A stretch of 64,000 bases of DNA from Candidatus Latescibacterota bacterium (GCA_965204745.1 OZ242010.1:5283461-5347460), one strand, 5' to 3'. Counted from the first letter of the stretch, positions 3,078 to 38,876 are shown. Program-made: numbers and translations. The notes: a model not told the origin generated them from the letters alone.

Positions 3078-3207
3078 GCACATTCTCGCAACGCAAAACG
3101 CCGTGCAGAAACGACCCTGCACGGCGTTTTTTTCGCGCTTGTAATATCCGAGTCTTTTCCATAAGTTGGGGCGTTCAATGATTAGCTCAATTTTCAGGAG
3201 GGGCGAC

Positions 3208-23060: not shown

Positions 23061-23254
23061 TTTGTCCCCCTCTCGAGGGGGGGGGGGGGGGGGTACACTG
23101 TACTGATCATCGTAACAGGCTGTTTTGCAATAAAATAGAACCGCACTCCAAGACGAGGATGGGCGATATGAACGCCACTTTTCGCGGTGGGACAGGCTGG
23201 AAAAACATAGCGCCAAATGAGGTTCAAACAGCGGCTGAAAATGGCGGTGATCAT
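23057..23254 (-). CDS. Leader uORF (65 aa) ending in polyproline encoded by the poly-C tract; stop overlaps giant-gene ATG (ATGA)
   Basis: AAAGGAGG SD 6 nt upstream of ATG 23254. Reads through 17 consecutive C (PPPPP). TGA at 23059-23057 overlaps ATG 23060-23058. Confidence 0.3.
   Translation of the reverse strand: MITAIFSRCLNLIWRYVFPACPTAKSGVHIAHPRLGVRFYFIAKQPVTMISTVYPPPPPLERGTK
23077..23093. repeat. Homopolymeric G17 (C17 on coding strand) tract ~15 nt upstream of giant-gene start codon
   Basis: Directly visible run of 17 G between 23077 and 23093. Confidence 0.9.
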
Positions 23255-23336
23255 CTGAAGCCTCCTTTGCAAAGCTGTCGCACAGACCGGGTGCGACTTT
23301 TTCTTCGCGTTCAAAATCGCAATGGTGAACGGGAAA

Positions 23337-23366
23337 AATATAGGGAATCGCGCTCTTGTTTGTCAA
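23337..23366 (-). promoter_or_regulatory. Sigma70-type promoter for giant gene (TTGACA-18nt-TATATT), implying ~270-nt leader
   Basis: Minus-strand TTGACA (23366-23361), 18-nt spacer, TATATT (23342-23337). Confidence 0.35.
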
Positions 23367-23390
23367 GCGGTAAAATGACGATGGGAATTG

Positions 23391-23820
23391 GGACCTACCC
23401 CCTGGCCCCCTTCCTAAGAGGAAGGGGGAATGGCGAGAGGTTGTGCGAGGGATTGTGTGTAAGGGTTTTTGGATTTTCATGGCGTGATCCATTCGCCCAA
23501 AGCCATCAAAACAGCCCTGGATGCAAACCTTCAAGAAAGCCATGCGCTCCCCCTTTCCTTGTAGGAAAGGGGGCCGGGGGGATAGGTCCTGCGATGAAGG
23601 GGGAATGGCGAAAGGTTTTGCGAGGGATTGCGCGAGGGGGGTTTGGGGTTCTATGGCGTGATCCATTCGCCCAAAGCCATCAAAACAGCCCTGGATGCAA
23701 ACCTTTAAGAAAGCCATGCGCTCCCCCTTTCCGCGTAGGCACAGGCGTAGCCTACAATGAGCGAAGCGAATAACGGGGGCCGGGGGGATAGGGCTATGGC
23801 GACAGGGCGTGCGAAGGACA
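23391..23820. repeat. Family C composite repeat, two tandem full copies with ~75-nt conserved core
   Basis: Core catggcgtgatccattcgcccaaagccatcaaaacagccctggatgcaaacctt(c/t)aagaaagccatgcgctccccctttcc duplicated. Ends gtaggcacaggcgtagcctac...ggggccggggggataggg. Same family as 8367-8700 and 28872-29050. Confidence 0.75.
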
Positions 23821-24090: not shown

Positions 24091-25083
24091 TCACCTCTTG
24101 CTGGGCGGATGGGGAAACGGGCGGGGACTGACCACTGCATTTGCCTCTCCCGTCTTGCCTCTCCCGTCTTGCCTCTTCCCTCTCTCCTCTGCCCATGCCC
24201 GCAGGGGAATGTCATCTCCATTTTTTGTGAGCCAGTATTGAGACGAGGGGTGAAACTCGGATTCCGGGCCGAGGGGGTCGCCGCCGGATGCCAGCGCGCC
24301 GAGCAACTGTTGTCGAATGGGCGAACTGCGTTGGATGAGTGCCTCGTCTTGCGCGATGTAATCCGTTGGGCGCAGCCAGCGGTAGTGGTAGCCCACATGC
24401 ATGATCTTCCGGGTTTTCCGCGACAAGTTCGGCCCGACGCAGTGCCAGACCGCTGTGCGCCACAACACGGCAGACCCGGCGCACAACTTGAGTTCCACGG
24501 CCTCTTCGGGGCTGACCACGCGCCCGGCGTCGCGCAGTTCCTCGGGCTTGCGCTTGTGGCTACCCGGCACCAACCACAAGTTGCCGCAGTTGGACTCGGT
24601 CATGTCGTAGAGCACGTAAAAAATCTTGATCTCCATGAACGGCAACCGCCCGTCCAGCGAGGGCGCGAGAAACAGGGTGTCGCTCGCCAAATCCGGATGC
24701 CACGCGACATTGCGATACCCGGCTTCTTGATCCGCGCCCTTGCCCACGCCCACGTCGCCGGGCGTCATGCCTTCGGGATACGGCGGGCGATAATCCAAAT
24801 GCGTGGTTCTGATCTGGATGTTCCACCCAATCGCATCCACCACCAAAGGCAACATGCGCGGGTGGTCGATCAAGTCGAGAAACGCCTCGTGTTGCGACAA
24901 GGCATTCCGCACGGCAAACGGATCACTGGGGCACAAACCCTCGGCCGCCCGAACCCGCTCGGCCACCTCGTCAATCGCCAACAAGAGCCGATCCACCTCG
25001 GCCTGCGCCAAAAAATCCTCGAAAACGACAAATCCCTTTTCCTCAAAATCCCGCGCCTGCTCCTCGGTCATTGCAAGGGCCAT
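24091..25083 (-). CDS. Phytanoyl-CoA dioxygenase (PhyH) family Fe(II)/2-oxoglutarate oxygenase
   Basis: Family-typical N-terminus (MTEEQARDFEEKGFVVFEDFL), WHPD motif and double-stranded beta-helix core. The 3' end of the ORF runs into repeat families B/D, so the C-terminal ~45 aa is repeat-derived. Confidence 0.65.
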   Translation of the reverse strand: MALAMTEEQARDFEEKGFVVFEDFLAQAEVDRLLLAIDEVAERVRAAEGLCPSDPFAVRNALSQHEAFLDLIDHPRMLPLVVDAIGWNIQIRTTHLDYRPPYPEGMTPGDVGVGKGADQEAGYRNVAWHPDLASDTLFLAPSLDGRLPFMEIKIFYVLYDMTESNCGNLWLVPGSHKRKPEELRDAGRVVSPEEAVELKLCAGSAVLWRTAVWHCVGPNLSRKTRKIMHVGYHYRWLRPTDYIAQDEALIQRSSPIRQQLLGALASGGDPLGPESEFHPSSQYWLTKNGDDIPLRAWAEERGKRQDGRGKTGEANAVVSPRPFPHPPSKR

Positions 25084-25505: not shown

Positions 25506-28500
25506 TCATTTTTCGCGCCCTTCGTTGAACTGCCTCTCCTTCCACAAGGCGTAAATCGCGGGGATCACCAAAAGCGTCAGGATCGTGGAGGACACCATCC
25601 CGCCGACCATCGGCGCGGCGATGCGTTTCATCGCCTCGGCGCCCGTGCCTGTGGACCACATGATCGGCAACAGGCCGACCATTGTCGAGAACACCGTCAT
25701 CAACTTGGGCCGCACGCGCTCCACCGCGCCTGCGATGATGGCCCGGTTCAAGTCTGCCCGCGTCAGTGTCTCGCGTTCGTACGCCTGATTCAGATAGATC
25801 AGCATCACCACCCCGGTTTCGGCGGCCAGGCCGGCCAGTGCGATGAACCCGACGCCGACGGCAATGCTCATCTCGTAATCCAAAATATACAGCAACCATA
25901 TCCCGCCGACCAGTGCAAAAGGCAGGGATAGCATGACGATCAGGCTCTCGGCCACGGTTTTGAAATTCAGGTACAGCAGAATGAAAATGATCGCAAGGGT
26001 GACGGGTATGACCACCTTCAGCTTTTGCTCGGCGCGTAGCATGTACTCGTACTGCCCGCTCCAGATCACGGTGTAGCCGGGGGGCATTGCCACCTGCTCC
26101 AAGACCGCCTGCCGCGCTTTTTCGACATAAGTGCCCACATCCACGTCTCGGATATCCACGTAGATCCACGCATTGAGGCGGGCGTTCTCGCTCTTGATGC
26201 TCGGCGGGCCTTTCCGAATGCGGAGCGCAGCCAATTCGCCAAGGGGGATTTGCGCGCCCGTGGGCGTGGGGACGAAGACGCGCCGCAGTGCGGGCAAATT
26301 GTCGCGCAATTCCCGGCCGTAGCGCAAATTTATCGGGTAGCGCGCCAAGCCCTCGACAGCATGCGTGATGTTCTGCCCGCCGAGTGCGGTCACGATAATG
26401 TCCTGCACGTCTCCCACTGTGAGCCCGTAACGCGCAACGGCCTGTCGGTCGATTTCAAAATCGAGATAATTGCCGCCGGCAACGCGCTCGGCAAACGCGC
26501 TTTGCGTGCCCGGCAGGCCGCGCATGACCGCCTCGATTTGTTTGCCCAATGCCTGCAACGTGTCGAGGTTGTCGCCCACGACCTTGATGCCCACCGGGGT
26601 TTTGATGCCGGTCGAGAGCATGTCGATGCGCGTCTTGATCGGCATGGTCCACGCATTGGTCAGGCCGGGGAATTGGACCGCGCGGTCCAGTTCTCGAATC
26701 AATTTTTGCGGGGTCATGCCCTCGCGCCATTCGGATTCGGGTTTGAGCATAATGGTGGTTTCGATCATCGACAAAGGCGCGGGGTCCGTTGCGGTTTCTG
26801 CGCGTCCGATTTTGCCGAATACGTGTTCGACTTCCGGAAACGTGCGGATGATTTTGTCGGTCTGTTGCAACAAGGCCCGCGCTTTGGTGATCGACACGCC
26901 GGGCAAGGTCGTGGGCATGTACAGCAGGTCGCCTTCGTACAGGGGGGGCATAAATTCCGAGCCGATTTTTTCGAGTGGAAACAGCGCGTCCAATTTGACC
27001 AGCGCCTTGTGGGTCAGGCTTTGCGGATGGGTTGCAAAACGCGAGACGACGAGATCGCGGAACGGGAACGCGGTCGCGAACAACGCGGCGCAGCCCAAGG
27101 CGACGGTCAGCAGTCGATGGTGCAACACCCAGTCGATCATGGGGCGGTACAGAAAAATCAATCCCCGGTTGATGGGATTTTCCGCTTCGGGGCGGATTTT
27201 GCCGCGCACGAAAAAGGTCATCAGCACGGGCACGACGGTAATCGCCAAGCATGCCGCCGCTACCATCGCATAAGTTTTGGTGTACGCGAGCGGTTTGAAC
27301 AGCCGGCCTTCCTGCGCCTCGAGGGAAAAGACCGGCAAAAACGACAGCGCGATGATCAGCATGGAAAAGAATAGGGAGGGCCCCACTTCTTTGGACGCGG
27401 CGATGACGATGTCCAGGTGCGGCTTTTTCCCGGCGTCGCGCTCGAGGTGCTTGTGAGCGTTTTCGATCATCACGATAGCCGCATCCACCATCGCGCCGAT
27501 AGCTATGGCGATGCCGCCGAGGGACATGATATTCGAGTTGACGCCCTGATGGTGCATGGCGATGAACGCGATCAATATCCCCATCGGCAAGGTGAACACC
27601 GCGACAAACGCGCTGCGAAAATGCAGGAGAAAGACCATGCACACCACGGCCACGACCGCGATCTCTTCTAGCAGCTTTTGTCGCAAGTGATCGACCGCGC
27701 GCAAGATCAGCGCGGAGCGGTCATAATTGGGGATGACGACCACGCCCTTGGGCAGGCCGGGTTTGAGCGTCTCGAGTTTTTGTTTGACCCGCTCGATCAC
27801 TTTGAGGGCGTTTTCCCCGTAGCGCATGACCACGATGCCGCCGACCACTTCGCCCTCGCCATTCCACTCGGCCAAGCCCCGCCTGAGTTCCGGGCCCACT
27901 TGCACGGTCGCAATGTCTTTGACGCGAATGGGCGTGCCCTTGTCATCCACGCCGAGCGCGATGTGCTCGATGTCTGCCACAGAGCGGATGTAGCCCAAGC
28001 CGCGCACCATAAATTCCGTTTCGGCCAGTTCGACGAGCCGCCCGCCCACGTCGTCGTTGCTGCGCTGAATGGCCATCCGCACCTCTTGCAACGGGATGTT
28101 GTACGCCAGCAGGCGATGGGGATCCACCACGACTTGATACTGTTTGACAAATCCCCCGACGGACGCCACTTCCGCGACGCCCTGCACGCTGCTCAATTCG
28201 TAGCGCAAGTACCAGTCTTGGATGGAGCGCAACTCCGACAAATCGCGCGTGCCCGTGGTGTCCAACACCGCGTATTGATAGACCCAACCCACGCCGGTCG
28301 CATCGGGCCCCAGCACGGGCGTGACCCCACGCGGCAATCTGCCGGACGCGGCATTGAGGTATTCCAATACCCGGCTGCGCGCCCAATACATGTCCGTGCC
28401 ATCCTCAAAAATCACATAGACGTAAGACAGGCCAAAAAACGAGTACCCGCGCACGGTCTTGGCATGAGGCACGGACAACATCGCGGTGGTCAGGGGATAG

Positions 28501-28697
28501 GTCACTTGGTCTTCGACCACCTGCGGCGCTTGCCCCGGGTATTCGGTGAACACGATCACCTGCACGTCCGACAAATCGGGAATCGCATCCAGCGGCGTGT
28601 TCACCATAGCATACACGCCCCAGCCGATCACCATCACCGTGGCGATCACCACCAAAAAACGATTCTCCACACTCGCTTGGATGATTTGGTTTAACAT
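25506..28697 (-). CDS. CusA/CzcA-family heavy-metal efflux RND transporter
   Basis: Start [27 protein letters not shown]...[40 protein letters not shown] is the hallmark HME-RND N-terminus. 1063 aa. Upstream extension of the listed ORF is translated repeat DNA. Confidence 0.85.
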   Translation of the reverse strand: [1063 protein letters not shown]

Positions 28698-28702
28698 GGC
28701 AG

Positions 28703-29050
28703 CGGTGAAAGGTGAGAGGTGAAAGGTGAAAGGTGAGAGGGCCGCCCAACAGCCCATCCGCAAGTAAGAGGTGAGACGGGAGAGGTGAGAGGGCCGCCCA
28801 ACAGCCCATCCGCAAGTAAGAGGTGAGACGGGAGAGGTGAGAGGGCCGCCCAACAGCCCATCCGCAAGTAAGGGGGAATGGCGAGAGGTCTTCGGGGTTC
28901 ATGGCGTTATCCATTCGCCCAAAGCCATCAAATCCGCCCTGGATGCAACCCTTTAAGAAAGCCATGCGCTCCCCCTTTCCTCGTAGGCACAGGCGTAGCC
29001 TACAATGAGCGAAGCGAATAACGGGGGCCGGGGGGATAGGGCTATGGCGG
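28703..29050. repeat. Tandem ~52-nt units (family B, x2.5) plus one family C core copy in cusA upstream region
   Basis: Unit gggccgcccaacagcccatccgcaagtaagaggtgagacgggagaggtgaga repeated head-to-tail. Followed by the conserved core ...ccattcgcccaaagccatcaaa...gtaggcacaggcgtagcctac. Confidence 0.75.
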
Positions 29051-29080: not shown

Positions 29081-30694
29081 CTATCCTCCGAACAGGCGGG
29101 CGAAAATGATAAAATCCGCGAAATCGACGCGGCCGTCTTGGTTGAGATCAAAGCGGGAATCAAAGTCCGCGTCGCCTTGGCGCAGGCCGAAGTGTTCGGC
29201 GAACAAGCGAAAATCGTCAAAACTCCGTTGTCCATTGCCATCAAAGTCAATGCGCGCGGCATAGCCCACGCTGGGAGATAGGGCGATGTACTCGTCGCCT
29301 TTTCGATAGGGCACGTATTCCATTGCCACGAGGAGCATTTCATCCGTGGTTTTTTCGCCCCACGCCACCGTGCGCGGGGGGGAATTGGGATTGAGCGGAT
29401 TGCCGACGGTATTGTCATACGTGACGACAGCGTGAATTTTCGATCCCGCGACAATTTTCTGAAAATGCGTGAAGGTGTAACTGCCCTGCCAATCAAAATC
29501 CCAGTCTGAAATCCGCACGAGATTGACGCGCTTGCCCTGTGGATCCACCGCGTACACGTCCCATGACCTGCCCAGCAAGTGCATGTGCGGGTAGATGGAC
29601 AACAAGCTGATGTCTTGATCGATAGTGAGGGTACCGCGAAAGGTTTTGACCCTGCGTGCCGGGATGACAAAGCGGCTGTCGATCTCGAGTTTTGCCATCG
29701 GATTGATCGCGCCAAACAAGTCGTCCGCGCTGCCGAGGAGATCGATCAAGTCTTCGACAGTGGGCGACAAATCCCCGAGTGCTTTGAGTTGCTCGATGTC
29801 GCGCCCGCCAAAAAGGCCGAAGAACGCTTTGACGTCATTGAGCGAAAAAGGCACGATAGCGATGAGGCCCACCTCTCTTTCGAGGGGTTCTTTTTTGAAA
29901 AAGATGTTCACGCTGGATCGATCCGACTCTGCAATGGGCCAGGGCGCGTAATGCACTTGGATGAGCAAATCGGCGTCTTTGGGCAAGATCTGTCCAACGC
30001 CCTGGGGAAATGCCACCGGGCGCGCGCCCGGGGTATAGGAGGGCAGGAGGGCGGCAATGGGCGAATCGAACCCGCCAAAAGACGCGTACCCGTATTCCGG
30101 GGTTTCGAGATCTTTTCGGCGCGCCGTGCCCGTGATGTCAACCGCGAGAAGCGCGTGGTGAACGATCTGGCGATTGCCCGGCCGAAATTCAATCGCCGCG
30201 ATAGCCCGATGTTCTGTCAGCCCGGTTGGGAGGACGAAGACCTGATACTGGTCCTCGTTATCCCCGCGGATGGTAAAGGGTTCTGCCATGGTCAAGACGA
30301 GGTCCGGCGTGCCGAGTGCAGACCCCGTGGGAAAGGTCGGCAGCGGTGCTTCGAGGGCGAGGTCGCCTCGCGGAAATCCCGCGTCGACCCAATCGCGGAT
30401 CAGGTCAATTTCGCTTTGCGTCAATGTTTGTTCGCCGATGTGCCGGCCGTAATTGGGATTGGGTTTCCACGGCGGCATTGCCCTGGTCTGCGTGACGTGT
30501 TTGACCATGGTCGCGTACGCCGCAACCTCGCTGTAATTCGTAAAAGGCATCGGCCCAATTTCACCCGTGCGATGGCAAGATGTGCAGTTGTTGTAGATGA
30601 TCGGGGAAATGTGTTCGCCAAACGCGATGGTTTGTGCGTGCGGCGAAGCAAGGGCGCAGGCGAGTGCGAGAATCAACAGGGCGAATACGCGCAT
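29081..30694 (-). CDS. Secreted copper type II ascorbate-dependent monooxygenase-like (PHM/DBH-like) protein with N-terminal CxxCH motif and C-terminal dockerin
   Basis: Signal peptide MRVFALLILALACALA. CTSCH heme-c-type motif followed by ...MPPW. PHM-like His clusters (IVHHALLAV, and YPHMHLLG HxH followed by a later Met). C-terminal dockerin repeats FDGNGQRSFDDFRLFAEHFG and FDLNQDGRVDFADFIIFARLFG. Confidence 0.55.
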   Translation of the reverse strand: MRVFALLILALACALASPHAQTIAFGEHISPIIYNNCTSCHRTGEIGPMPFTNYSEVAAYATMVKHVTQTRAMPPWKPNPNYGRHIGEQTLTQSEIDLIRDWVDAGFPRGDLALEAPLPTFPTGSALGTPDLVLTMAEPFTIRGDNEDQYQVFVLPTGLTEHRAIAAIEFRPGNRQIVHHALLAVDITGTARRKDLETPEYGYASFGGFDSPIAALLPSYTPGARPVAFPQGVGQILPKDADLLIQVHYAPWPIAESDRSSVNIFFKKEPLEREVGLIAIVPFSLNDVKAFFGLFGGRDIEQLKALGDLSPTVEDLIDLLGSADDLFGAINPMAKLEIDSRFVIPARRVKTFRGTLTIDQDISLLSIYPHMHLLGRSWDVYAVDPQGKRVNLVRISDWDFDWQGSYTFTHFQKIVAGSKIHAVVTYDNTVGNPLNPNSPPRTVAWGEKTTDEMLLVAMEYVPYRKGDEYIALSPSVGYAARIDFDGNGQRSFDDFRLFAEHFGLRQGDADFDSRFDLNQDGRVDFADFIIFARLFGG

Positions 30695-30699
30695 GGGGG

Positions 30700-31227
30700 T
30701 TACTCCTGTGCTGTGTTTTGCAAGGGCGTGATGAAGCAGCCAATGGCTTGGGTTTTGCGAAATGTCGAGGGCTTTTTGTTGCGGAGGACATTCAGGACAT
30801 CCGCGAGGTCATGCTCGGTGACGACCCTGCGCCGCTTGCCCACGCGCGCAAAGGTGTTGTCAATGCGGCCCTGGTAGATCGCGGTATTTGACGAATCGAC
30901 AACCACGACCTCGGGCATCACGGTTATCCCAAAGCGCTTCACCCATGTGTGGGCGGAATCCCGGATGCAGGAGAACGGCAGCATGTATTTCTCTTTGAAC
31001 GCGGCGATGGTGGTCGATGTGGAGAGCGCGTTGGGGAACACGCCGATAAATGCGAGTTCTTCAGCCGCGTACTTCGCGTGCAACTTTCTCAGCGTCAGGG
31101 TGTAATGCCGCGAGACCGGACAGGTTTCCCCGAGAAAGACATAGACCTTATGCGGCGCGCAAATCCCCGATCCGACCAAGAGCAAAATCGCACAGGGGAT
31201 GACCAAAATAGCATGACGCCAATTCAT
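30700..31227 (-). CDS. Thioredoxin-fold (redoxin/TlpA/SCO-like) protein with signal peptide, co-operonic with the Cu-monooxygenase-like gene
   Basis: ATG 31227 with GGAGGAG SD. N-terminal hydrophobic signal. Motif VYVFLGETCPVSRH occupies the CxxC/CxxS position. 6-nt gap to the next gene. Confidence 0.4.
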   Translation of the reverse strand: MNWRHAILVIPCAILLLVGSGICAPHKVYVFLGETCPVSRHYTLTLRKLHAKYAAEELAFIGVFPNALSTSTTIAAFKEKYMLPFSCIRDSAHTWVKRFGITVMPEVVVVDSSNTAIYQGRIDNTFARVGKRRRVVTEHDLADVLNVLRNKKPSTFRKTQAIGCFITPLQNTAQE

Positions 31228-31397: not shown

Positions 31398-33143
31398 GTG
31401 GTCATCACAAAACAAAAGGCAATGGGGGTACATTTTACCCCTCCTGAATTGGCCCGGTTTGTAGCGCGGAGAATTATTAACGCATTCTCTTCCAATGCCT
31501 CAAAGCACCTCAGGGTTCTCGATCCCGCTTGTGGAGATGGCGAATTGCTTTTGGCATTTGCCGAAATGCTTCCCGACTCATTTCAAGGCCGATGTACTTT
31601 GGTAGGTATCGAGTCAGACTGTTCATCATTGCATCGCGCGAGCGAACGATTGGCGCACTTGCCTCAAAAAGAAGTCGAACTCCACGAAGACGATTTTCTA
31701 GCGTTCTACGAAAATCAGCAGAAACGCCCCGATTTGTTTCATCTCCCTTCAAACGGTCATTCGCTTGTAAAACCCGCCGATGTCATTATTGCAAATCCCC
31801 CTTATGTAAGGACACAGATACTCGGCGCCGCGAAAGCACGAGAATTATCGAACCTTTTTGGTTTGAAGGGGCGGATCGATCTCTATCAGGCATTTCTGAT
31901 TGCAATGACCGATCATTTGTCTCCGGGGGGAATGATCGGCGTCATTACTTCAAATAGGTTTCTTTTTACCCGAGGTGCAAGTGTTGTGCGAGAATTTTTG
32001 GATCGTCAATACCATATCACTGAAATTTTTGATCTTGGAGATACGAAACTTTTTGACGCTGCGGTACTGCCCGCGGTGTTTATAGGACAGCGCAAATCCG
32101 ACGGTGAATTACCCGACAAAAAGTTACAAAAATTTGTGAAAATTTATGAAAATCTGAACGGCAATGACAATTCCAAACAAAATGTAGAGTACTCTGACTC
32201 CGTGTTCAAAGTTCTCGAAAGCGAAGCCATTGGCACGTATCAAATCCAGAGTAAATGCTTCAATATCTCCCGAGGTCTTCTTTCTATCCCAGCCTCATCC
32301 TCCGAACCGTGGCGCATGGTCACGGCAGGGGAAAGTGCTTGGCTCAAAAGGATAAACGCTCGGGCCTTTTATCGCATTGGAGATATTTTGAAAGTTCGAG
32401 TGGGTATTAAGACCACGGCGGATGAGGTGTTCATCAGAGAAAATTGGGACGCGCTTTCCAAAACGCGAAAGCCAGAAAAAAAACTCCTTCAATACTTGCT
32501 GTCTCATGGCGATGCGGCCCGTTGGCGTTCTCTAACGAGGAAAGAGGCCCTCAAGCAAGTCTTGTACACTCATGAAGAGAAAAATGGCAGACGTCAGGCG
32601 ATTGATTTATCTGAATATCCACGAGCTAAGGCGTATCTCTCTCTGTATCGAAAGCGTTTGGAAGGCAGAAAATACGTTTTGAAAGCGAAGCGCAATTGGT
32701 ACGAGATCTGGGTACCTCAAAATCCCCATCTGTGGAAACGGCCCAAAATCGTTTTTCCCGATATAAGTTTGGTGCCCAAATTTTTCTATGATGCAGATGG
32801 ATATATCGTCGATGGCAACTGCTACTGGATTCCACTGGAAAACGGAACGGATGAAGAGGTGCTTTTTCTGATACAAGGCGTGGCAAATTCAAAACTCATG
32901 ACGCGCTATCACGACCTTTCATTTAACAACAAGCTCTATGCTGGACGGCGGCGATATTTGACTCAATACGTTCAAAAGTATCCCCTTCCCGATCCAACCA
33001 CCCGCGACGCACAGCAGATTGTCGCTCTGGTCAAAGCGTTGGTATTTTCTGTCTCAGATGATAAATCGCGTGATGAAAAAGAACGAGAATTGGAAATTAC
33101 GGTCGCAAGTGCCTTTGGCGTAGAGCCCGTGTCCGAAATTTAG
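31398..33143 (+). CDS. Type II N6-adenine DNA methyltransferase, gamma class (Eco57I/TaqI-like)
   Basis: Motif I VLDPACGDGELL precedes motif IV IIANPPY. C-terminal target-recognition region. Lower GC than surroundings. Confidence 0.8.
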   Translation: MVITKQKAMGVHFTPPELARFVARRIINAFSSNASKHLRVLDPACGDGELLLAFAEMLPDSFQGRCTLVGIESDCSSLHRASERLAHLPQKEVELHEDDFLAFYENQQKRPDLFHLPSNGHSLVKPADVIIANPPYVRTQILGAAKARELSNLFGLKGRIDLYQAFLIAMTDHLSPGGMIGVITSNRFLFTRGASVVREFLDRQYHITEIFDLGDTKLFDAAVLPAVFIGQRKSDGELPDKKLQKFVKIYENLNGNDNSKQNVEYSDSVFKVLESEAIGTYQIQSKCFNISRGLLSIPASSSEPWRMVTAGESAWLKRINARAFYRIGDILKVRVGIKTTADEVFIRENWDALSKTRKPEKKLLQYLLSHGDAARWRSLTRKEALKQVLYTHEEKNGRRQAIDLSEYPRAKAYLSLYRKRLEGRKYVLKAKRNWYEIWVPQNPHLWKRPKIVFPDISLVPKFFYDADGYIVDGNCYWIPLENGTDEEVLFLIQGVANSKLMTRYHDLSFNNKLYAGRRRYLTQYVQKYPLPDPTTRDAQQIVALVKALVFSVSDDKSRDEKERELEITVASAFGVEPVSEI

Positions 33144-34309
33144 GGGTCGTGAACCGCTCGACCTTCATATTGGTCAAAGAAGCTCATCGGAATCGCCCTT
33201 TGGCATTTGTAGTTCGTACTGGAAACATAAGAGAAATGCTCGCCTAATTTTTCCCCAGGACACAACACAACGCCTGTGACGACACCTGTTTTTTCGTCCG
33301 TCAATGCAATCAGATATCGAATATCCGATGTCGTGAACCCCGGACATGCGGGAACATCTTCCTCGACTCGAGGGCTGTACATACCCAAGTCAATGGTGGG
33401 CGAATCTTGCACTTTGACTTCGAGTGCTTGATTGGGCAAATCGGGATAGCTTCCCATGAGTGGTTCATCCGCACGCGGCATATATCCCAGATACTGGGAA
33501 ATGAGCAGTTCGAGAAATTGCCCTCGGTTTTTGGTGGTAGCCCCCTCAATTGTTGCATTTATCAGACGGACCGCTACTTTCTCTCGCAATATTCGCAGTG
33601 CCAGTACTCGCCCCTGTCTGGGCTTGTCACGCATAGAAGCGCGTGGCCTTTCATAAAGTTGCGAAACCATTGTCGCAACTTTAGCGGTATCTGGATAATA
33701 GAGAATGGGGGGCCGCGTCTCCAAAATTTTCCTGCGTGTTTTATCGGTGATAATGAGTTGATGCTTGATTGTGGGCCTGCTAAATTTTCCGAAATGATCG
33801 ACGATATAATCCGATGATAAGAGGAAAATAGAACGCACTTCGAAGGTATGGGGATCGACGCGCACGATAACGAATCTAACATCTCGGTCACGCAAGTTTT
33901 CCCCAAAAGCGTACTCGATTTGGATACTTTCTCCTACGGGATTTCGATTCCATACTTGGAGATTGTACGCCGCGCCCGTTGTAACGATATAGGTGTCGAT
34001 ATATTCTCGCAGAATCCGCGGTACACCTTTCTTTTTTGGAGGGATGATCGTATAGGAAGCCCGATCACATGGCGGCGGCAACGGGTGTTTTTCAAGTGTT
34101 GCCGCGATCAAATTTCGCATATTCGTGCCGTCGGTTCTCGTTTTCCGCGTCAATGGAAATGAGGTTCCGATCAGCACGCTTAAGCACTCAACGAGGATTT
34201 TAGGCGGTGTGAGCGCGTTTTTATTTTTCGGCGGAATCGTTAAGGGGTTATTCAAAGCGAGCCCCATCTTGAAATGGCGAATGGACTTGTGCAATACCGC
34301 GTATCGCAT
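33140..34309 (-). CDS. Putative type II restriction endonuclease (PD-(D/E)xK)
   Basis: Convergent with the methyltransferase, overlapping by 4 nt. ...YPDLPNQALEVKVQ fits PD-x(n)-E-x-K. Low GC. Start uncertain (34309, 34267 or 34120). The N-terminal ~135 codons of the listed ORF overlap the uxaC-like gene and are rejected. Confidence 0.5.
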   Translation of the reverse strand: MRYAVLHKSIRHFKMGLALNNPLTIPPKNKNALTPPKILVECLSVLIGTSFPLTRKTRTDGTNMRNLIAATLEKHPLPPPCDRASYTIIPPKKKGVPRILREYIDTYIVTTGAAYNLQVWNRNPVGESIQIEYAFGENLRDRDVRFVIVRVDPHTFEVRSIFLLSSDYIVDHFGKFSRPTIKHQLIITDKTRRKILETRPPILYYPDTAKVATMVSQLYERPRASMRDKPRQGRVLALRILREKVAVRLINATIEGATTKNRGQFLELLISQYLGYMPRADEPLMGSYPDLPNQALEVKVQDSPTIDLGMYSPRVEEDVPACPGFTTSDIRYLIALTDEKTGVVTGVVLCPGEKLGEHFSYVSSTNYKCQRAIPMSFFDQYEGRAVHDP

Positions 34310-34311
34310 CT

Positions 34312-35553
34312 TCAATCCAGCAATTTGCCCCCGCCGAACATGGTCGAGATGTCGCGTTGGATGTCGGCTTGGGTGAGGGGCCAGCCCGCGGCGCGGAGCG
34401 ATTCGTATTTCTCGACGAAAACCGGGGCGATGACTTGGATGGCATGCGTCCATTTGTAGAGCAACTGGTCGAGGATGCGCGCATCGGAGTGCTGCGGGAC
34501 AAAACTCGTGCCGAGCAGTTCGAGGCGTTCGGCGGTAATTTCGCGGATGATGCTCGGATTGTTCAAAAACCACCAGCAGCCAAAGGGATGCACATTGGGA
34601 AATTTGCGGCCCGTCACGCAGAGTTCGTGCTGGTTCTCGCGCGAGAGCAAGGTGATGAGAAAATCGACCTCCGGCCAATCGCGGGCGATGCGCTCGAGGT
34701 TCGTCATATCCCACTTGCCCAAACTGTCGCCCCCGTCTTTGAGCACGGGGTTGACCTGCCGCGTCACCCCGATCATCATCGCCGATGGGATTTGCAATTC
34801 CCGCGCCGTGGGATACACCACGTTGCCCATCATCAGGGAGATGCTGTCCGCTGAGGGATATGCAAAATCCGGGGGAAGCGAGATCGCCATGTAGCGCGCG
34901 TCCATCTTTGCCACCCAGTCCGCGAGATAGCGGCGCAGTTCCGAAAAGGTCTTGTCGGACAACCCCTCTTCCACGTCATACCCCAAACCGCGCAGTTTGC
35001 CCACCGGCGTCGGCCAGTTCATCAACGCGCTGTCGAGGCGCAAGACCGCCTTGAAGCGCGGGTCAATGGAAACGCCCTGCTGCCACATCGCGCCTTCGGC
35101 GTCGTCGAGCGGATCATTGGTCATGTACACACAGGCGACCCCGGCTTTTTCAAACACCATATCGGTGTATTCTTCGGGCGTCTTGGAGGCGTAAAAGGCG
35201 CGAAACTCGGACAGGTCTGTAGCACGGGGATTCAGCCCCAAGCGGCTCATCACAGTGACCACGCCCAGTTGTGCTTCGGAAATCGGCGAACTGTTGCCCA
35301 CGAAAAGTCGTCGCCAGATCACGTCGGCCTGTTCCGCAGTGGGCATATTGTTAAACGCGGCCACCGAGACGCCTTCGGGCAACATGCGCGAACACTCGGC
35401 TTTGAGATAGTGGTAGGTCAGCAACTCGTCCGGCCCGGCCAGGTACAACGCGCCCATCGACGCGGGGTAGAGATGCGTGTGAATATCGACAATGGCGTGG
35501 TTTTGAAATGCGTTCTCCACGGCTTTTGCGATTGAAAAATTGGACATGTTCAT
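34312..35553 (-). CDS. uxaC: Glucuronate (uronate) isomerase-like amidohydrolase-superfamily protein
   Basis: N-terminal IVDIHTHLYP...HYLKAECSRM and C-terminal FGCWWFLNNP resemble the UxaC signatures (DYHCHL, HYKWRAMR, GSGWWFND) recalled from memory. Start at MNMSNF (35553). Confidence 0.55.
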   Translation of the reverse strand: MNMSNFSIAKAVENAFQNHAIVDIHTHLYPASMGALYLAGPDELLTYHYLKAECSRMLPEGVSVAAFNNMPTAEQADVIWRRLFVGNSSPISEAQLGVVTVMSRLGLNPRATDLSEFRAFYASKTPEEYTDMVFEKAGVACVYMTNDPLDDAEGAMWQQGVSIDPRFKAVLRLDSALMNWPTPVGKLRGLGYDVEEGLSDKTFSELRRYLADWVAKMDARYMAISLPPDFAYPSADSISLMMGNVVYPTARELQIPSAMMIGVTRQVNPVLKDGGDSLGKWDMTNLERIARDWPEVDFLITLLSRENQHELCVTGRKFPNVHPFGCWWFLNNPSIIREITAERLELLGTSFVPQHSDARILDQLLYKWTHAIQVIAPVFVEKYESLRAAGWPLTQADIQRDISTMFGGGKLLD

Positions 35554-36429: not shown

Positions 36430-37800
36430 TAGCCGCTCCTTCAAATTGTATGAAATCGACTTTATCGCATACTATCGCATGCTACACAAAAGCCAATGAC
36501 CGTTGATTCGATTGCCGCTTCTTTGGGCGTGCGTCCACGCGCTTACAACCTCGTGTCCGTCTTATCGTTCCTCCACGTCCGTTTATCGACTCGGCAGGGC
36601 TTGCCGCGTCGTATTGTGCAAGATTTCTTGCCGCGTTCAAATCGCGGTCAAGAACCAGTCCGCAGGACAAGCAGACATACTCACGCTCTGACAAATCCAT
36701 AGCAACCTTGCGCTGTCCACAGCCAGAGCATGTCTTCGTGCTGGCAAACCACCTGTCGGCTTTCTCAAAGGCCACGCCAGACCATTCGCACTTATACGCC
36801 AACATACGCAAGAAGCCTGCGATGCCGGCGCGGTGGAACGCACGCGACAGGCTTTTGTTGCGGCGCATACCGGCGACATTCAGCGTTTCGACAATCACCT
36901 TGCCAACGGTCGTCGCTTTGACCAAAGCGGAAGTGGCTTTGTGATGAACATCGTTGCGAATGGTTGTGATGCGTCCGTAGATGCGCTGGCGTTGGTCATA
37001 CAAGCGTTGCCTGCGATTACTGCGTTGGTTCTTGCCATGCACATGCTTTGAGCGTGCGATGGCTTTATCTACTCGGCGCAACTTCCGATACTGCGTATCA
37101 ATTGATCCTTTTGGATTGTCTATCGTTGTGCCATCAGAATAGGTTGCCAGCGTCTTGATGCCCATGTCAATGCCGATGGGTTCACCAGACCGCTTATCGG
37201 GCACAGCCTCGCCAGTATCGACAGATAGACAAACAAACCAGCGGTCATGCGTCTTTGTCACCGTGGCTTTGACAATCTCGCCGGGAAAGCGCAGACGCTC
37301 AGCCATCTTGACCCAACCAATTTTGGGGAGATAGACCTTTTTGCCGTCCACCTTGACCGTACCGGGCCCATTATCGGCTTGGTACGCACGCTTACCAGAC
37401 CGCTTGCGGTGTTTTGGAAACCTCGCTGGCGATTTCTTGTCTTGCCACCTCTTGATGGCAAAGTCCAAATCGTGAATGGCGTTCTTTGATGCGTTCTGCG
37501 ACAACTCGACAGACCATTCATACTCGGCATACTTGACCGCATTGAACTCCCGCTTGAGCGTATAGACCGACTTAAACACGCCCATATCCAGGGCGTGTTT
37601 GAACGCATTGAGGGCGTGATTATACGCAACACGAGCATAGCCACAGTGCTTTGACAACCGCGTCGCCTGGGCTTTATTCGGCTTCAGTGCATTTTTGTGC
37701 GTCTTAACCATTGGCCTATCCAATCTTCAACACCAACTGCTTTCGCTCGATAATATACGATTTTATACGATACGATACGATTATAGCGAAATGTTACTTA
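36430..37800 (-). mobile_element. IS200/IS605-family element of IS1341 type (tnpB only, no tnpA)
   Basis: Complete TnpB ORF. Lower GC. Upstream end carries atacgat direct repeats and ...gaaatgttacttacc. No Y1 transposase in the window. Confidence 0.6.
36482..37723 (-). CDS. tnpB: TnpB (OrfB) RNA-guided endonuclease-like transposase accessory protein
   Basis: N-terminal HTH-like region (KAQATRLSKHCGYARVAYNHAL). RuvC-I GIDMGI. Zn finger CSGCGQ...CLSCG. RuvC-III DRDLNAARN. Confidence 0.85.
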   Translation of the reverse strand: MDRPMVKTHKNALKPNKAQATRLSKHCGYARVAYNHALNAFKHALDMGVFKSVYTLKREFNAVKYAEYEWSVELSQNASKNAIHDLDFAIKRWQDKKSPARFPKHRKRSGKRAYQADNGPGTVKVDGKKVYLPKIGWVKMAERLRFPGEIVKATVTKTHDRWFVCLSVDTGEAVPDKRSGEPIGIDMGIKTLATYSDGTTIDNPKGSIDTQYRKLRRVDKAIARSKHVHGKNQRSNRRQRLYDQRQRIYGRITTIRNDVHHKATSALVKATTVGKVIVETLNVAGMRRNKSLSRAFHRAGIAGFLRMLAYKCEWSGVAFEKADRWFASTKTCSGCGQRKVAMDLSEREYVCLSCGLVLDRDLNAARNLAQYDAASPAESINGRGGTIRRTRGCKRVDARPKKRQSNQRSLAFV

Positions 37801-38048
37801 CCCTCTGTCGTTCCTATATCCTCGCCACTCCGCTCTTCCCAAGTATAGGTTGGGAATGGCGATGAAGCAAGCGAGAATATGGCGAGATGTAGGGGCGGCG
37901 CAATTAGCCGTTCTCAAGCCAGTTCATGGATGGGAAACGACGAGCGAGGTAGGGGCAGTGCCCCTGTGCCAAAAAAAAATGATGTGGCTATCAGAAATTA
38001 TCATACCTTTTCGATATGGATGGGAATAATGTGAAAAAGGAGAATAAC

Positions 38049-38876
38049 ATGGTTTCTGATCTCGATATCTATCTGTTCGACTTGCGCGGGTACCTGCTTC
38101 TGGAAGGCGCGCTGACCGATAGTGAAGTTCGGGCATTGAACGGGTGTTTGGACGAAATTCCCGCGCTCGCGCCGGGCGACTGGTATGGGTATATCCACGG
38201 CCATGCGTATGGCGATGTCACATCGGGAATCAACTATCAGCAGATTTACGAGGCGGGCGAGCCGTATGAAAAGCTGATCGACCATCCGTCTTGGTTTGAA
38301 CACGTCAAGTTGTTCATCGGCGGCGAAGGCACCTTTGACTACCATCACGGCCCCGTGTTCATCGACGAATGTTTTGCCAATTTCCGCGGGCCGGGCGAGG
38401 CCATTGGCCTGCATTCGGGTGGGTTTCCGCCCATTCACAGAAATCAGTTTCGCTATCGCGGCGGCCGGTTTATGTGCGGGCAGATCAACGTGCTGATCGC
38501 CCTCACAGACATCGGGCCGGGCGATGGGGGAACGATGCTGATTCCGGGCAGCCACAAATCGAATTTCAAGCATCCGCATTACGACAAACAGCGGATGGGA
38601 GAGAACAGGTCCGTCGATGGCACCCTAGGCGCGATTGAAGTGTTTATGAAGGCGGGCGATACCTTGGTTTTTGTCGATGGGATTTCTCACGGCTCCGCCA
38701 AGCGCGTCAACGAGGGCACGCGGCGCATTGTCGTGTATCGCTACGGCCCTTCGTGGGGAAATTTCCGGCACGGGTACCAGCCCTCACCGGAATTGCTCGA
38801 CCGCCTCACACCCCAACGCCGCCGCATCGTCCAACCCCAGGTCTTGCTCCCACGCGAACCACAAATCAAAAAATAA
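38049..38876 (+). CDS. Phytanoyl-CoA dioxygenase (PhyH) family protein
   Basis: AAGGAG SD 6 nt upstream of ATG 38049. DSBH-type 2OG-oxygenase fold with conserved His/Asp residues. Paralogous to the three other PhyH genes in the window. Confidence 0.55.
   Translation: MVSDLDIYLFDLRGYLLLEGALTDSEVRALNGCLDEIPALAPGDWYGYIHGHAYGDVTSGINYQQIYEAGEPYEKLIDHPSWFEHVKLFIGGEGTFDYHHGPVFIDECFANFRGPGEAIGLHSGGFPPIHRNQFRYRGGRFMCGQINVLIALTDIGPGDGGTMLIPGSHKSNFKHPHYDKQRMGENRSVDGTLGAIEVFMKAGDTLVFVDGISHGSAKRVNEGTRRIVVYRYGPSWGNFRHGYQPSPELLDRLTPQRRRIVQPQVLLPREPQIKK

What the first reader, a model, noticed from the sequence alone, without database searches (positions are those of the whole stretch)
29081..31227. Operon of a thioredoxin-fold protein and a secreted PHM/DBH-like copper monooxygenase bearing a CxxCH motif and a dockerin
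The 537-aa protein combines four parts:
- A signal peptide.
- An N-terminal CTSCH...MPPW segment (c-type haem-binding motif, reminiscent of planctomycete cytochrome-like domains).
- A two-domain region with the His clusters expected for type II Cu ascorbate-dependent monooxygenases (HH..., HxH..., M).
- A canonical C-terminal dockerin.

The gene upstream, with a 6-nt gap, encodes a secreted thioredoxin-like protein with CPVS in the CxxC position (possibly a SCO/TlpA-like copper or redox partner).

A dockerin-targeted copper monooxygenase implies a cohesin-based surface complex recruiting oxidative enzymes. The same window contains a dockerin-type giant adhesin.
Basis: partly seen in the sequence, partly recalled or inferred. 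Interest (0 to 1): 0.6.

Follow-up and report, generated by a model that had tools for sequence, protein, structure and literature searches.

The report
Haem-fused copper monooxygenase with thioredoxin partner
A two-gene operon in an uncultured Latescibacterota bacterium encodes a secreted enzyme that joins a cytochrome c module to a copper monooxygenase of the type that makes animal peptide hormones and noradrenaline, next to a small thiol-redox helper protein; the pair belongs to a very large bacterial family that I could not find characterised.

Summary
Window 29081-30694 (-) encodes a 537-aa protein with four parts:
- a signal peptide;
- a CxxCH haem c module;
- a two-domain PHM/DBH-type dicopper core, with the HH/H and HxH/M ligands conserved;
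- a genuine dockerin.

Five nucleotides upstream, 30700-31227 (-) encodes a secreted thioredoxin-fold protein.

The copper assignment rests on three results: a family profile hits rat PHM at E 4e-11 with the His ligands aligned, Foldseek hits PHM at E 3e-13, and the ligands stay nearly invariant across diverged relatives.

The partner is not Sco-like. It belongs to the 2CVB/2YWI/3U5R thioredoxin-fold group. Its redox pair is C36 plus a C-terminal C164, not a CxxC.

The gene pair recurs in 69 of 81 loci from Latescibacterota, Bacteroidota, Verrucomicrobiota and Ignavibacteria, and in a KSB1 locus fetched separately. The two modules are fused in 30 of 270 relatives.

The C-terminal tail varies by lineage: dockerin in Latescibacterota, a T9SS sorting domain in Bacteroidota and KSB1.

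Most likely this is an ascorbate-independent hydroxylase in which haem c feeds CuH, and the periplasmic thiol partner serves maturation or reduction. Substrate, cohesin partner and electron source remain unknown. I rate it a new variant of a known kind, of moderate interest.

The parts
30700..31227 (-). Gene B: secreted thioredoxin-fold protein (175 aa). N-terminal signal peptide. C36 (codon 31120-31122) sits in CPVS at the CxxC position. cis-Pro P105 is followed by E106. C164 (codon 30736-30738) lies in the motif IGCFI near the C-terminus.
   Evidence: AhpC-TSA 30.9 bits (cut-off 26) and Redoxin 29.1 bits (cut-off 26.6). The profile hits 2cvb at E 4.9e-19, 2ywi at 7e-18 and 3u5r at 6e-14. AlphaFold model pLDDT 86.7. 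Foldseek top hits are 2ywo, 2cvb, 3u5r and 2ywi. C36, C164 and P105 are conserved in 154-155 of 156 modules.
30703..30707 (-). AGGAG ribosome-binding site for gene A, inside the 3' end of gene B. There is a 5-nt gap between the stop (30700-30702) and the ATG (30692-30694).
   Evidence: Sequence read directly.
29081..30694 (-). Gene A: 537-aa secreted haem c / PHM-like dicopper monooxygenase with a dockerin tail (stop codon 29081-29083).
   Evidence: ORF. 1651 homologues among the 8000 candidates scored. 15321 representative clusters at E<=1e-3.
30632..30694 (-). Signal peptide of gene A (about residues 1-21, MRVFALLILALACALASPHAQ).
   Evidence: Read from the sequence. The N-terminal hydrophobic segment is present in all relatives. 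Cleavage site not predicted with a tool.
30365..30631 (-). Mono-haem cytochrome c module (about residues 22-110). CxxCH = C37/C40/H41 (30572-30586). Candidate distal ligand M73 in the invariant MPPW motif.
   Evidence: Cytochrome_CBB3 22.1 bits, below cut-off, in the window protein. It matches in 16/16 relatives and scores above cut-off in P0191 (37.1) and P0181 (34.1). Invariant columns. CcmF/CcmH genes lie on the contig of the 85%-identical orthologue.
29843..30322 (-). PHM-type N-terminal beta-sandwich domain (about residues 125-284) with the CuH-type ligands H179, H180 and H248.
   Evidence: The profile alignment to rat PHM puts the family's vvHHvll on TVHHMLL and lqvHy on LQVHY. Foldseek hits PHM. 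The relative P0259 passes the Pfam Cu2_monooxygen cut-off (31.3 vs 30).
29684..29842 (-). Lineage-specific, partly helical insertion of about 50 aa between the two copper domains (residues 285-337).
   Evidence: Present in Latescibacterota-type and the 558-569-aa relatives, absent from the T9SS-tailed ones. pLDDT below 50.
29285..29683 (-). PHM-type C-terminal beta-sandwich domain (about residues 338-470) with the CuM-type ligands H370, H372 and M453.
   Evidence: Cu2_monoox_C matches residues 359-460 and 16/16 relatives. HmHllgk aligns with PHM HTHHLGK. M453 is invariant in 40 sequences.
29084..29251 (-). Dockerin module (residues 482-537): two Ca-binding loop + helix repeats, DFDGNGQRSFDDF... 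and DLNQDGRVDFADF...
   Evidence: Pattern scan. Tail profile vs PDB: 2y3n_B E 6.6e-13, 4u3s_B 4.3e-11, 4wi0_B 2.9e-10, calmodulins about 1e-6. Dockerin_1 reaches E 3e-6 in orthologues.

Best explanation
This is a two-gene operon for an ascorbate-independent copper hydroxylase of the PHM/DBH type.

Gene A is exported through Sec. In the periplasm it receives one covalently bound haem c at C37-x-x-C40-H41, with M73 as the probable sixth ligand, and two copper ions. One copper binds at H179/H180/H248 (the electron-transfer CuH site). The other binds at H370/H372/M453 (the O2-activating CuM site).

During catalysis the N-terminal haem c module sits directly in front of the CuH domain. It takes single electrons from an external donor and passes them to CuH. 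This replaces the ascorbate used by the animal enzymes. CuM then activates O2 and hydroxylates a C-H bond of a substrate that is still unknown and probably extracellular.

In Latescibacterota the C-terminal dockerin parks the enzyme on a surface or scaffold protein. Bacteroidota and KSB1 relatives export the same core with a type IX secretion tail instead.

Gene B is a periplasmic thioredoxin-fold protein whose redox pair is C36 plus C164. It is an obligate partner of the enzyme. It carries no export tail, and fused forms never carry one. Its common role is therefore most likely played in the periplasm before export: keeping the CxxCH cysteines reduced for haem attachment, or handing over Cu(I). 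In the fused periplasmic forms it may also feed reducing equivalents into the haem.

Shown: the architecture, ligand conservation, fold, gene pairing and fusions. Inferred: haem and copper occupancy, the direction of electron flow, the role of the partner, and hydroxylase activity.
For: - PHM relationship. Profile A4 matches rat PHM chains at E 4.4e-11, with HH, QVHY and HxH aligned. The Foldseek top 30 hits are all PHM or DBH, best E 2.8e-13, about 355 aligned columns covering both domains. Cu2_monoox_C matches 16/16 relatives.
- Ligands and haem motif are invariant or nearly so in 40 diverged sequences.
- Haem c. The CxxCH + MPPW motifs are invariant. Cytochrome profiles score above cut-off in relatives. 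Ccm genes are present in the lineage.
- The haem module lies immediately N-terminal to the CuH domain. A cytochrome c domain fused next to a copper centre is an efficient donor in caa3 oxidases (PMC5668878).
- Partner. It is adjacent and co-oriented in 69/81 loci from Latescibacterota, Bacteroidota, Verrucomicrobiota and Ignavibacteria, and also in a KSB1 locus, and is the only conserved neighbour. It is fused to the enzyme in 30/270 relatives, at either end, which implies independent fusions.
- C36, C164 and the cis-Pro are conserved in about 99% of 156 modules, while the second CxxC position is S, C, A or T.
- The mature enzyme's only cysteines are the CxxCH pair.
- Export tails occur in 150/240 unfused forms and 0/30 fused forms (Fisher p 2.7e-12).
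- The dockerin is genuine.
- The two genes are translationally coupled.
Against: - No biochemical data exist for any member, as far as I could find.
- The window protein itself is below every Pfam cut-off. Its model has only moderate confidence (pLDDT 63.8, and poor over the haem module).
- The profile alignment to PHM stops before the Met ligand.
- The five disulfides of PHM (recalled from the literature) have no counterpart, because the core has no cysteines.
- A surface or extracellular enzyme has no obvious electron source.
- The link between fusion and absence of export tails may reflect taxonomy rather than function.
- 12 of 81 loci lack an adjacent partner, though some of these are truncated contigs.
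- A maturation factor permanently fused to its client is unusual.
Confidence: 0.6

Rival explanations
1. The thioredoxin-fold protein is the steady-state electron donor. Its C36/C164 dithiol, recharged from the cytoplasm through a CcdA/DsbD-type pathway, delivers two electrons per turnover. The haem c splits them into single-electron steps for CuH, giving a thiol -> haem c -> Cu relay.
For: - The module order in most fusions is Trx - cytochrome c - copper core, with only 15-25 residues between the C-terminal Cys and the haem module.
- PHM chemistry needs exactly two electrons per turnover (established knowledge).
- The Cys pair and cis-Pro are strictly conserved.
- Periplasmic enzymes fused to a reductant Trx domain are known, for example Neisseria PilB (Trx-MsrA-MsrB), and Sco-cytochrome c fusions have been reported (both recalled, not checked here).
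Against: - In more than half of the unfused forms the enzyme carries a T9SS or dockerin tail and leaves the periplasm. The partner has no such tail, so the two would end up in different compartments.
- Direct thiol-to-haem electron transfer is unusual.
- No CcdA/DsbD gene was seen next to any locus inspected.
Confidence: 0.2
2. The pair is an oxidative-stress or thiol-oxidase device rather than a hydroxylase. Either the copper core reduces O2 or H2O2 with electrons drawn from thiols via the haem (a periplasmic sulfhydryl oxidase), or the partner is a peroxidase that mops up peroxide.
For: - The best Pfam families for the partner are AhpC-TSA and Redoxin.
- The C-terminal Cys resembles a resolving cysteine, as noted for 2ywi in PMC3091736.
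- No substrate is known.
Against: - The conserved Cys sits at the first CxxC position, and the partner has neither a Thr three residues before it nor an Arg in the expected place (read; the peroxiredoxin motif itself is recalled from memory).
- Full retention of the PHM CuH and CuM ligand sets, including the Met, argues for substrate-coupled O2 activation.
- Export to the cell surface is hard to reconcile with periplasmic thiol oxidation.
Confidence: 0.1
3. The operon is part of copper homeostasis. The protein binds or oxidises periplasmic copper and works with the CusA-type efflux pump encoded immediately downstream.
For: The next gene (25506-28696, -) is a CusA/CzcA-family heavy-metal RND pump, scoring 1274 bits against a cut-off of 701. 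The protein has two copper sites.
Against: - No CusA relative lies near the module in any of the 88 other loci.
- The 85%-identical orthologue has PhyH genes downstream instead.
- 385 nt with a tandem repeat separate the two genes.
- A dockerin or T9SS tail does not fit a periplasmic homeostasis role.
Confidence: 0.04
4. The PHM-like core is a non-catalytic binding or structural module on a surface protein, and the CxxCH motif is not used for haem.
For: The window protein scores below the Pfam cut-offs. The haem region of the model has low confidence.
Against: All eight metal and haem ligands are invariant or nearly invariant over thousands of diverged relatives. That pattern is typical of catalytic constraint, not of a binding module.
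Confidence: 0.03

Closest known systems
Peptidylglycine alpha-hydroxylating monooxygenase (PHM, catalytic core of PAM; PDB 1PHM, 3MLL, 1SDW)
   Same: Two beta-sandwich domains. The HH+H (CuH) and HxH+M (CuM) ligand sets lie in the same order with similar spacing. The local motifs VHHxLL, LQVHY and HxHxLGK align.
   Different: About 14% identity. There are no disulfides. A 50-aa insertion sits between the domains. A haem c module and a dockerin are added. The arginine that I recall binding the peptide carboxylate just before the HxH motif has no counterpart (the family has Y-P-H-M-H), so the substrate is probably not a glycine-extended peptide. The electron donor is presumably not ascorbate.
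Dopamine beta-hydroxylase / tyramine beta-monooxygenase / MOXD1 (PDB 4ZEL)
   Same: Same dicopper core (Foldseek E about 1e-11). An accessory domain sits N-terminal to the CuH domain.
   Different: In DBH the N-terminal domain is a DOMON domain with no bound haem (recalled). Here it is a c-type cytochrome. DBH is a disulfide-linked, ascorbate-dependent vesicular enzyme.
Cytochrome c domain fused to the CuA domain in subunit II of caa3-type cytochrome oxidases
   Same: A covalently attached mono-haem cytochrome c sits next to a copper centre and acts as its built-in electron donor (PMC5668878).
   Different: Different copper centre (binuclear CuA), different fold, and a membrane respiratory complex. 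This is an analogy of mechanism only.
Cellobiose dehydrogenase cytochrome domain with lytic polysaccharide monooxygenases (recalled from the literature)
   Same: A haem domain supplies electrons to a secreted copper monooxygenase acting on extracellular material. Both can be attached to targeting or carbohydrate modules.
   Different: LPMOs are mononuclear histidine-brace enzymes of unrelated fold. The CDH haem is b-type. No polysaccharide link is shown here.
Thioredoxin-fold proteins 2CVB/2YWO (Thermus thermophilus), 2YWI (Geobacillus kaustophilus), 3U5R (Sinorhizobium meliloti SMc02350); I recall this group as 'PRX_like1' in CDD
   Same: Best sequence and fold matches of gene B (E 4.9e-19 to 6e-14, TM about 0.7). 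They share the Cys at the first CxxC position followed by P-x-[VI], the cis-Pro, and the C-terminal xIGCxI cysteine.
   Different: 18-24% identity. These structural-genomics proteins have no known function, and no association with a copper enzyme is known to me. Gene B is secreted.
ResA / CcmG (DsbE) / StoA / TlpA periplasmic thiol-disulfide reductases
   Same: They are the next-best fold and profile hits. They are periplasmic, have a cis-Pro loop, and act on CxxCH of apocytochromes or on copper-site cysteines.
   Different: They use a CxxC pair. In gene B's family the second Cys is S, A or T in about 80% of members, and the partner cysteine comes from the C-terminus.
Sco1/SenC copper chaperones
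   Same: Thioredoxin fold, periplasmic, and serve copper enzymes.
   Different: The CxxxC + His copper site is absent. No Sco structure appears among the profile or fold hits.
Cellulosomal type I dockerins (e.g. 2Y3N_B, 4U3S_B, 4WI0_B)
   Same: A duplicated 22-residue Ca-loop/helix repeat aligns over 57 residues at E 6.6e-13.
   Different: It is attached to an oxidative metalloenzyme in a non-clostridial phylum. No cohesin partner is identified. Relatives carry a T9SS sorting domain in its place.

Membership tests
PHM/DBH copper type II monooxygenase superfamily | Two-domain beta-sandwich catalytic core | tested here: met
   Foldseek against the PDB: the top 30 hits are PHM or DBH, best E 2.8e-13, TM (target-normalised) 0.64, about 355 aligned columns. 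The model has moderate confidence.
PHM/DBH copper type II monooxygenase superfamily | CuH site: HH pair plus a third His in the N-domain | tested here: met
   H179/H180 and H248 align with PHM VHHMLL and LQVHY. H180 is invariant; H179 and H248 are at least 90% conserved in 40 sequences.
PHM/DBH copper type II monooxygenase superfamily | CuM site: HxH plus Met in the C-domain | tested here: met
   H370/H372 align with PHM HTH. H370, H372 and M453 are invariant. The Met lies beyond the end of the HMM alignment, so its equivalence rests on position and on the D-E-M motif, which I recall from PHM/DBH.
PHM/DBH copper type II monooxygenase superfamily | Passes the curated Pfam cut-offs (PF01082, PF03712) | tested here: inconclusive
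   Window protein: PF03712 scores 20.7 against 23, and PF01082 gives no hit. Relatives pass: P0214 PF03712 34.5; P0259 PF01082 31.3 against 30.
PHM/DBH copper type II monooxygenase superfamily | Ascorbate as electron donor; O2-dependent C-H hydroxylation | not testable with these tools
   Needs enzymology. The fused haem c suggests a different donor.
PHM proper (peptidylglycine-specific) | Substrate carboxylate-binding residues around the HxH and Met motifs; conserved disulfides | tested here: not met
   The family has Y-P-H-M-H, and the PHM 'yrv' segment falls in an insert state. There are no cysteines outside CxxCH. The identity of the PHM residues is recalled, not checked.
Class I c-type cytochrome | CxxCH haem-attachment motif, a distal Met, a Sec signal, and a maturation system in the organism | tested here: met
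   C37/C40/H41 and M73 are invariant. A signal peptide is present. CcmF/CcmH are found on the orthologue's contig. The Pfam score is below cut-off for the window protein (22.1 vs 27) and above it in P0191 and P0181. Haem binding itself is not testable here.
Planctomycete PSCyt-type cytochrome domains | Match to PSCyt profiles | tested here: not met
   No PSCyt family is listed at E<=1. There is only a faint resemblance to the haem domain of hydrazine synthase alpha (E 0.04-0.37).
Dockerin (type I) | Two tandem Ca-binding loop/helix segments at the C-terminus, similar to dockerins of known structure | tested here: met
   Both loops are present. Profile hits to 2y3n_B, 4u3s_B, 4wi0_B and 5k39_B rank ahead of EF-hand proteins. 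The window protein alone is below the Pfam cut-off (13.9 vs 22.9).
Dockerin (type I) | A cohesin partner in the same organism | not tested
   No cohesin family appeared among 36 window ORFs scanned. The rest of the genome was not available.
Sco1/SenC | CxxxC plus a distal His copper site | tested here: not met
   The motif is C-P-V-S. There is no invariant His. No Sco structure is among the hits.
TlpA/ResA/CcmG thiol-disulfide reductases | CxxC active site on a thioredoxin fold with a cis-Pro | tested here: not met
   The fold and cis-Pro are present, but the second Cys is S in 103, A in 15, T in 4 and V in 1 of 156 modules, and Cys in only 31.
2CVB/2YWI/3U5R thioredoxin-fold group | Single conserved Cys at the first CxxC position plus a conserved C-terminal G-C | tested here: met
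   Full-length HMM alignments at E 4.9e-19 to 6e-14 with both cysteines aligned. They are the top fold hits.
Peroxiredoxin | PxxxTxxC peroxidatic motif and a catalytic Arg | tested here: not met
   The residue three before C36 is G, L, S, A or K rather than T. Peroxiredoxin structures score only E 0.01-0.2. The motif definition is recalled from memory.

The most novel reading that the evidence does not exclude
The family is a widespread, ascorbate-independent class of PHM-type monooxygenases. A thiol module, a c-type haem and two coppers form a complete electron relay. The catalytic unit is displayed on the cell surface by dockerin in Latescibacterota and by T9SS in Bacteroidota, to oxidise extracellular polymers or peptides. 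That would make it a bacterial counterpart of the fungal CDH-LPMO system, and the first oxidative metalloenzyme shown to be recruited by a dockerin.
Probability: 0.25. Interest if true: 0.8.

Novelty: new variant of a known kind. Interest (0 to 1): 0.55.

Why it matters
PHM and DBH are textbook animal enzymes that depend on ascorbate. A bacterial branch comprising thousands of sequence clusters carries its own cytochrome c and an obligate thiol partner. That would show how this copper chemistry is driven without ascorbate, and would give tractable bacterial models, since orthologues exist in cultured Hymenobacter strains.

Current annotation names these proteins only after their tails ('T9SS type A sorting domain-containing protein', 'cytochrome c', 'hypothetical protein'). 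NCBIfam has no model for the core. A large group of secreted oxidative enzymes in soil and aquatic Bacteroidota, Verrucomicrobiota and Latescibacterota is therefore invisible to genome-based metabolic inference.

If the dockerin is functional, it would extend cohesin-dockerin display from hydrolases to redox enzymes.

Tried and rejected
- A 16-sequence family profile (A1) searched against PDB sequences found no PHM at all, only a faint haem-motif hit. A more diverse 40-sequence profile was needed.
- Sco-like copper chaperone for gene B: rejected. The motif is absent and no Sco structures appear among the hits.
- Peroxiredoxin for gene B: rejected, because the catalytic motif is not present.
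- Functional link to the adjacent CusA pump: rejected, because no CusA relative lies near the module in any of the 88 other loci.
- Search for further conserved neighbours. All-against-all clustering of ORFs from 81 loci found only the two genes. Pfam scans of neighbours in Hymenobacter, Saprospiraceae, Latescibacterota and two fused-form contigs gave unrelated genes.
- Cohesin in the window: none among the ORFs scanned.
- Literature. Six full-text searches found no characterised bacterial cytochrome c-PHM protein and no paper on dockerins in Latescibacteria in the held library. My recollection that Latescibacteria genomes were reported to hold many dockerin proteins could not be checked.
Full report
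**1. What is in the sequence**

Gene A spans 29081-30694 (537 aa). Gene B spans 30700-31227 (175 aa from the ATG at 31227).

The gap between them is 5 nt, not 6. An AGGAG ribosome-binding site for gene A lies inside the last codons of gene B, and another precedes gene B's own start. The two genes therefore form a tightly coupled operon.

- a hydrophobic signal peptide;
- C37-T-S-C40-H41;
- M73-P-P-W;
- H179-H180;
- H248 within QVHY;
- H370-M-H372;
- M453 within T-D-E-M;
- a C-terminal pair of Ca-loop repeats.

The closest genomic relatives are seven Candidatus Latescibacterota MAGs, at 62-87% identity over the full length. The window therefore comes from that phylum.

**2. Is gene A really a PHM/DBH-type copper protein?**

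Taken alone, the window protein falls just under every curated Pfam cut-off: Cytochrome_CBB3 22.1 against 27, Cu2_monoox_C 20.7 against 23, Dockerin_1 13.9 against 22.9. NCBIfam has no model for the core. The case rests on family-level evidence.

- The protein has 1651 homologues among the 8000 candidates scored in the 90%-clustered collection. It has 15321 representative clusters at E<=1e-3, of which 2395 reach E<=1e-30, in the 50%-clustered library.
- All 16 relatives tested match Cu2_monoox_C and a cytochrome c profile. Some pass the cut-offs, including the N-terminal Cu2_monooxygen domain in P0259.
- A profile of 40 diverged members matches the rat PHM chains of the PDB at E 4.4e-11. In the printed alignment the family's vvHHvll lies on PHM's TVHHMLL, lqvHy lies on LQVHY, and HmHllgk lies on HTHHLGK. 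These are the motifs that hold the CuH and CuM histidines.
- An AlphaFold model (pLDDT 63.8, with the beta-sandwich core mostly 70-90) finds PHM and human DBH as its top 30 Foldseek hits. The best is E 2.8e-13 with both domains aligned.
- In those 40 sequences the mean column identity is 19%. Even so, C37, C40, H41, M73, H180, H370, H372 and M453 are invariant, and H179 and H248 are at least 90% conserved.

The core differs from PHM in three ways. The mature protein has no cysteine other than the CxxCH pair, so PHM's disulfides have no counterpart. A roughly 50-residue low-confidence insertion, partly helical in the model, separates the two domains in some lineages. PHM's 'yrv' segment before the HxH motif has no counterpart in the family profile; I recall that segment as carrying the carboxylate-binding arginine. 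That argues against a glycine-extended peptide as substrate.

**3. The haem module and the dockerin**

The CxxCH and MPPW motifs are invariant. Cytochrome profiles score above cut-off in relatives (37.1 and 34.1 bits). The contig of the 85%-identical orthologue encodes CcmF and CcmH. No PSCyt profile was among the Pfam matches listed.

A profile of the last 60 residues from six orthologues, plus the second dockerin-like module of the window, hits solved cellulosomal dockerins. The scores are 2y3n_B at E 6.6e-13, 4u3s_B at 4.3e-11 and 4wi0_B at 2.9e-10, aligned over the whole module. Calmodulins reach only about 1e-6. The dockerin is genuine.

It is a lineage-specific tail, however. Relatives at 70-72% core identity, together with most Bacteroidota and KSB1 members, carry a T9SS C-terminal sorting domain in the same place. 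Others carry Ig or PKD modules.

No cohesin family appeared among the 36 window ORFs I scanned. What the evidence supports is exposure or secretion at the cell surface. A cohesin scaffold remains a hypothesis.

**4. Gene B**

Gene B passes the AhpC-TSA and Redoxin cut-offs. Its family profile aligns end to end with three thioredoxin-fold structures whose entry titles give no function: 2cvb/2ywo, 2ywi and 3u5r (E 4.9e-19 to 6e-14). ResA, StoA and DsbE follow far behind, and no Sco protein appears. A confident model (pLDDT 86.7) gives the same ranking by fold.

Across 156 modules the cysteine at the first CxxC position (C36), the C-terminal G-C cysteine (C164) and the cis-proline are each present in 154-155. 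The second CxxC position is Ser in 103, Cys in 31, Ala in 15 and Thr in 4.

The functional pair is therefore C36/C164, not a CxxC. The Thermus homologue was deposited twice, once explicitly as the 'reduced' form. This suggests, but does not prove, a reversible disulfide in this fold group.

'SCO-like' is not supported. 'TlpA-like' holds only at the level of the general fold.

**5. The two genes work together**

A profile search of 80 genome loci placed a gene B homologue directly beside gene A and on the same strand in most of them, usually upstream and occasionally downstream. These loci come from Latescibacterota, Bacteroidota (Saprospiraceae, Hymenobacter, Flavobacteriales, Cytophagales, Chitinophagales), Verrucomicrobiota and Ignavibacteria. 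The KSB1 locus fetched separately has the same arrangement.

All-against-all clustering found the partner in 69 of 81 loci. No other conserved neighbour emerged. Neighbours inspected by Pfam are unrelated housekeeping genes.

In 30 of 270 family members the two modules are fused into one polypeptide: 27 with the Trx module at the N-terminus and 3 with it at the C-terminus. The fused modules keep the same C...GC signature.

None of the 30 fused proteins carries a T9SS or dockerin tail, whereas 150 of 240 unfused ones do (Fisher p 2.7e-12). Taxonomy may confound this result.

**6. How it most likely works**

- Shown: the architecture, ligand conservation, fold, pairing and fusions.
- Inferred: everything about cofactors, electron flow and activity.

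The haem c module lies immediately N-terminal to the CuH domain. That is the position expected for a built-in single-electron donor to CuH, in place of ascorbate. A cytochrome c fused next to a copper centre plays exactly this role in caa3 oxidases (PMC5668878). CuM would then activate O2 and hydroxylate a substrate that remains unknown.

The partner has a signal peptide but no export tail. Fused forms are never exported. The enzyme's only cysteines are the haem-attachment pair. The role common to the whole family is therefore best placed in the periplasm before export. It could reduce the CxxCH cysteines for haem ligation, as ResA and CcmG do, or deliver Cu(I) through a bis-cysteinate site.

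A steady-state thiol -> haem -> copper relay is attractive for the fused periplasmic forms. It conflicts with the different destinations of the two proteins in the exported forms.

**7. Rivals considered**

- A peroxidase or thiol-oxidase device. This does not fit the missing peroxiredoxin motif or the fully retained PHM ligand set.
- A copper-homeostasis role with the CusA-family pump encoded 385 nt downstream. No CusA relative lies near the module in any of the 88 other loci, and the orthologue in L001 has different neighbours.

**8. Novelty**

Six full-text searches found no characterised bacterial member. Public names refer only to the tail or to the haem motif.

The components are all known kinds, and the family is plainly visible in sequence databases. 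What is new is the combination. A PHM-type dicopper core carries its own cytochrome c, has an obligate C...C thioredoxin-fold partner, and bears interchangeable surface-export tails, here a dockerin.

I rate it a new variant of a known kind, of moderate interest. It would become considerably more interesting if the electron relay and an extracellular oxidative role were demonstrated.

Noticed in passing
window 28712-28875: Three tandem copies of a 52-nt repeat (90-100% identical) lie immediately upstream of the ATG (28696) of the CusA-family gene, in the 385-nt spacer after gene A. They inflate the mechanical ORF call to 28853. Function unknown.
   Followed up: partly
window 25506-28696 (-): A CusA/CzcA-family heavy-metal RND pump (1274 bits) has no CusB or CusC-like gene beside it. 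Its neighbours are the monooxygenase operon upstream and a PhyH-family dioxygenase downstream. A second RND permease lies at 18-3077 (+).
   Followed up: partly
window 10419-10613 (-) and 10610-17983 (-): A canonical dockerin (DEDGDGDVNFADF...DGDGDGEIGFDD) is encoded by a 64-aa ORF that starts right after the stop codon of the 2457-aa fn3/GLUG/Calx-beta adhesin, but in another frame. This suggests a frameshift, a sequencing error or a decaying C-terminus.
   Followed up: partly
window 10757-10975 (-): Two copies of a different Ca-loop motif (LDVDGDGRVRLFSDIILVIRYVLFF) lie near the C-terminus of the giant adhesin. Repeated 'HAIRWDLNGDG' and 'NNLDFDENGDGEIT' loops occur along both giant adhesins (10610-17983 and 17802-23717).
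   Followed up: no
window 31398-34714: An Eco57I/TaqI_C-type N6 DNA methyltransferase (31398-33143, +) converges on an ORF with no Pfam match (33140-34714, -), in the lowest-GC stretch of the window (0.47 against about 0.58). This may be a restriction-modification island. In the orthologous locus L001 the methyltransferase is interrupted by an IS1595 transposase.
   Followed up: partly
window 36482-37723 (-): An IS605-family OrfB/TnpB gene (Cas12f1-like TNB, OrfB_IS605 and HTH domains).
   Followed up: no
window 24091-25083 (-), 38016-38876 (+); L001 11884-15859: Several PhyH (phytanoyl-CoA dioxygenase-like) paralogues lie around the operon. There are four in tandem directly downstream of the orthologue in L001, and one near the fused form in L087. 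I did not test whether this is meaningful.
   Followed up: no
relatives P0218, P0181, P0191 (no window coordinates): Unusual architectures occur in the family. P0218 has the Trx + cytochrome c + copper core followed by an FGE-sulfatase domain. P0181 is a tandem duplication of the whole enzyme with EF-hand/dockerin-like tails. P0191 is a tandem duplication of the fused form with apparent membrane segments.
   Followed up: partly
window 3166-4092 (+): An NHL-repeat protein resembling ScyF (E 9.5e-28, below the curated cut-off). It caught my eye only because NHL beta-propellers form the lyase half of animal PAM. No link to the operon is shown.
   Followed up: no
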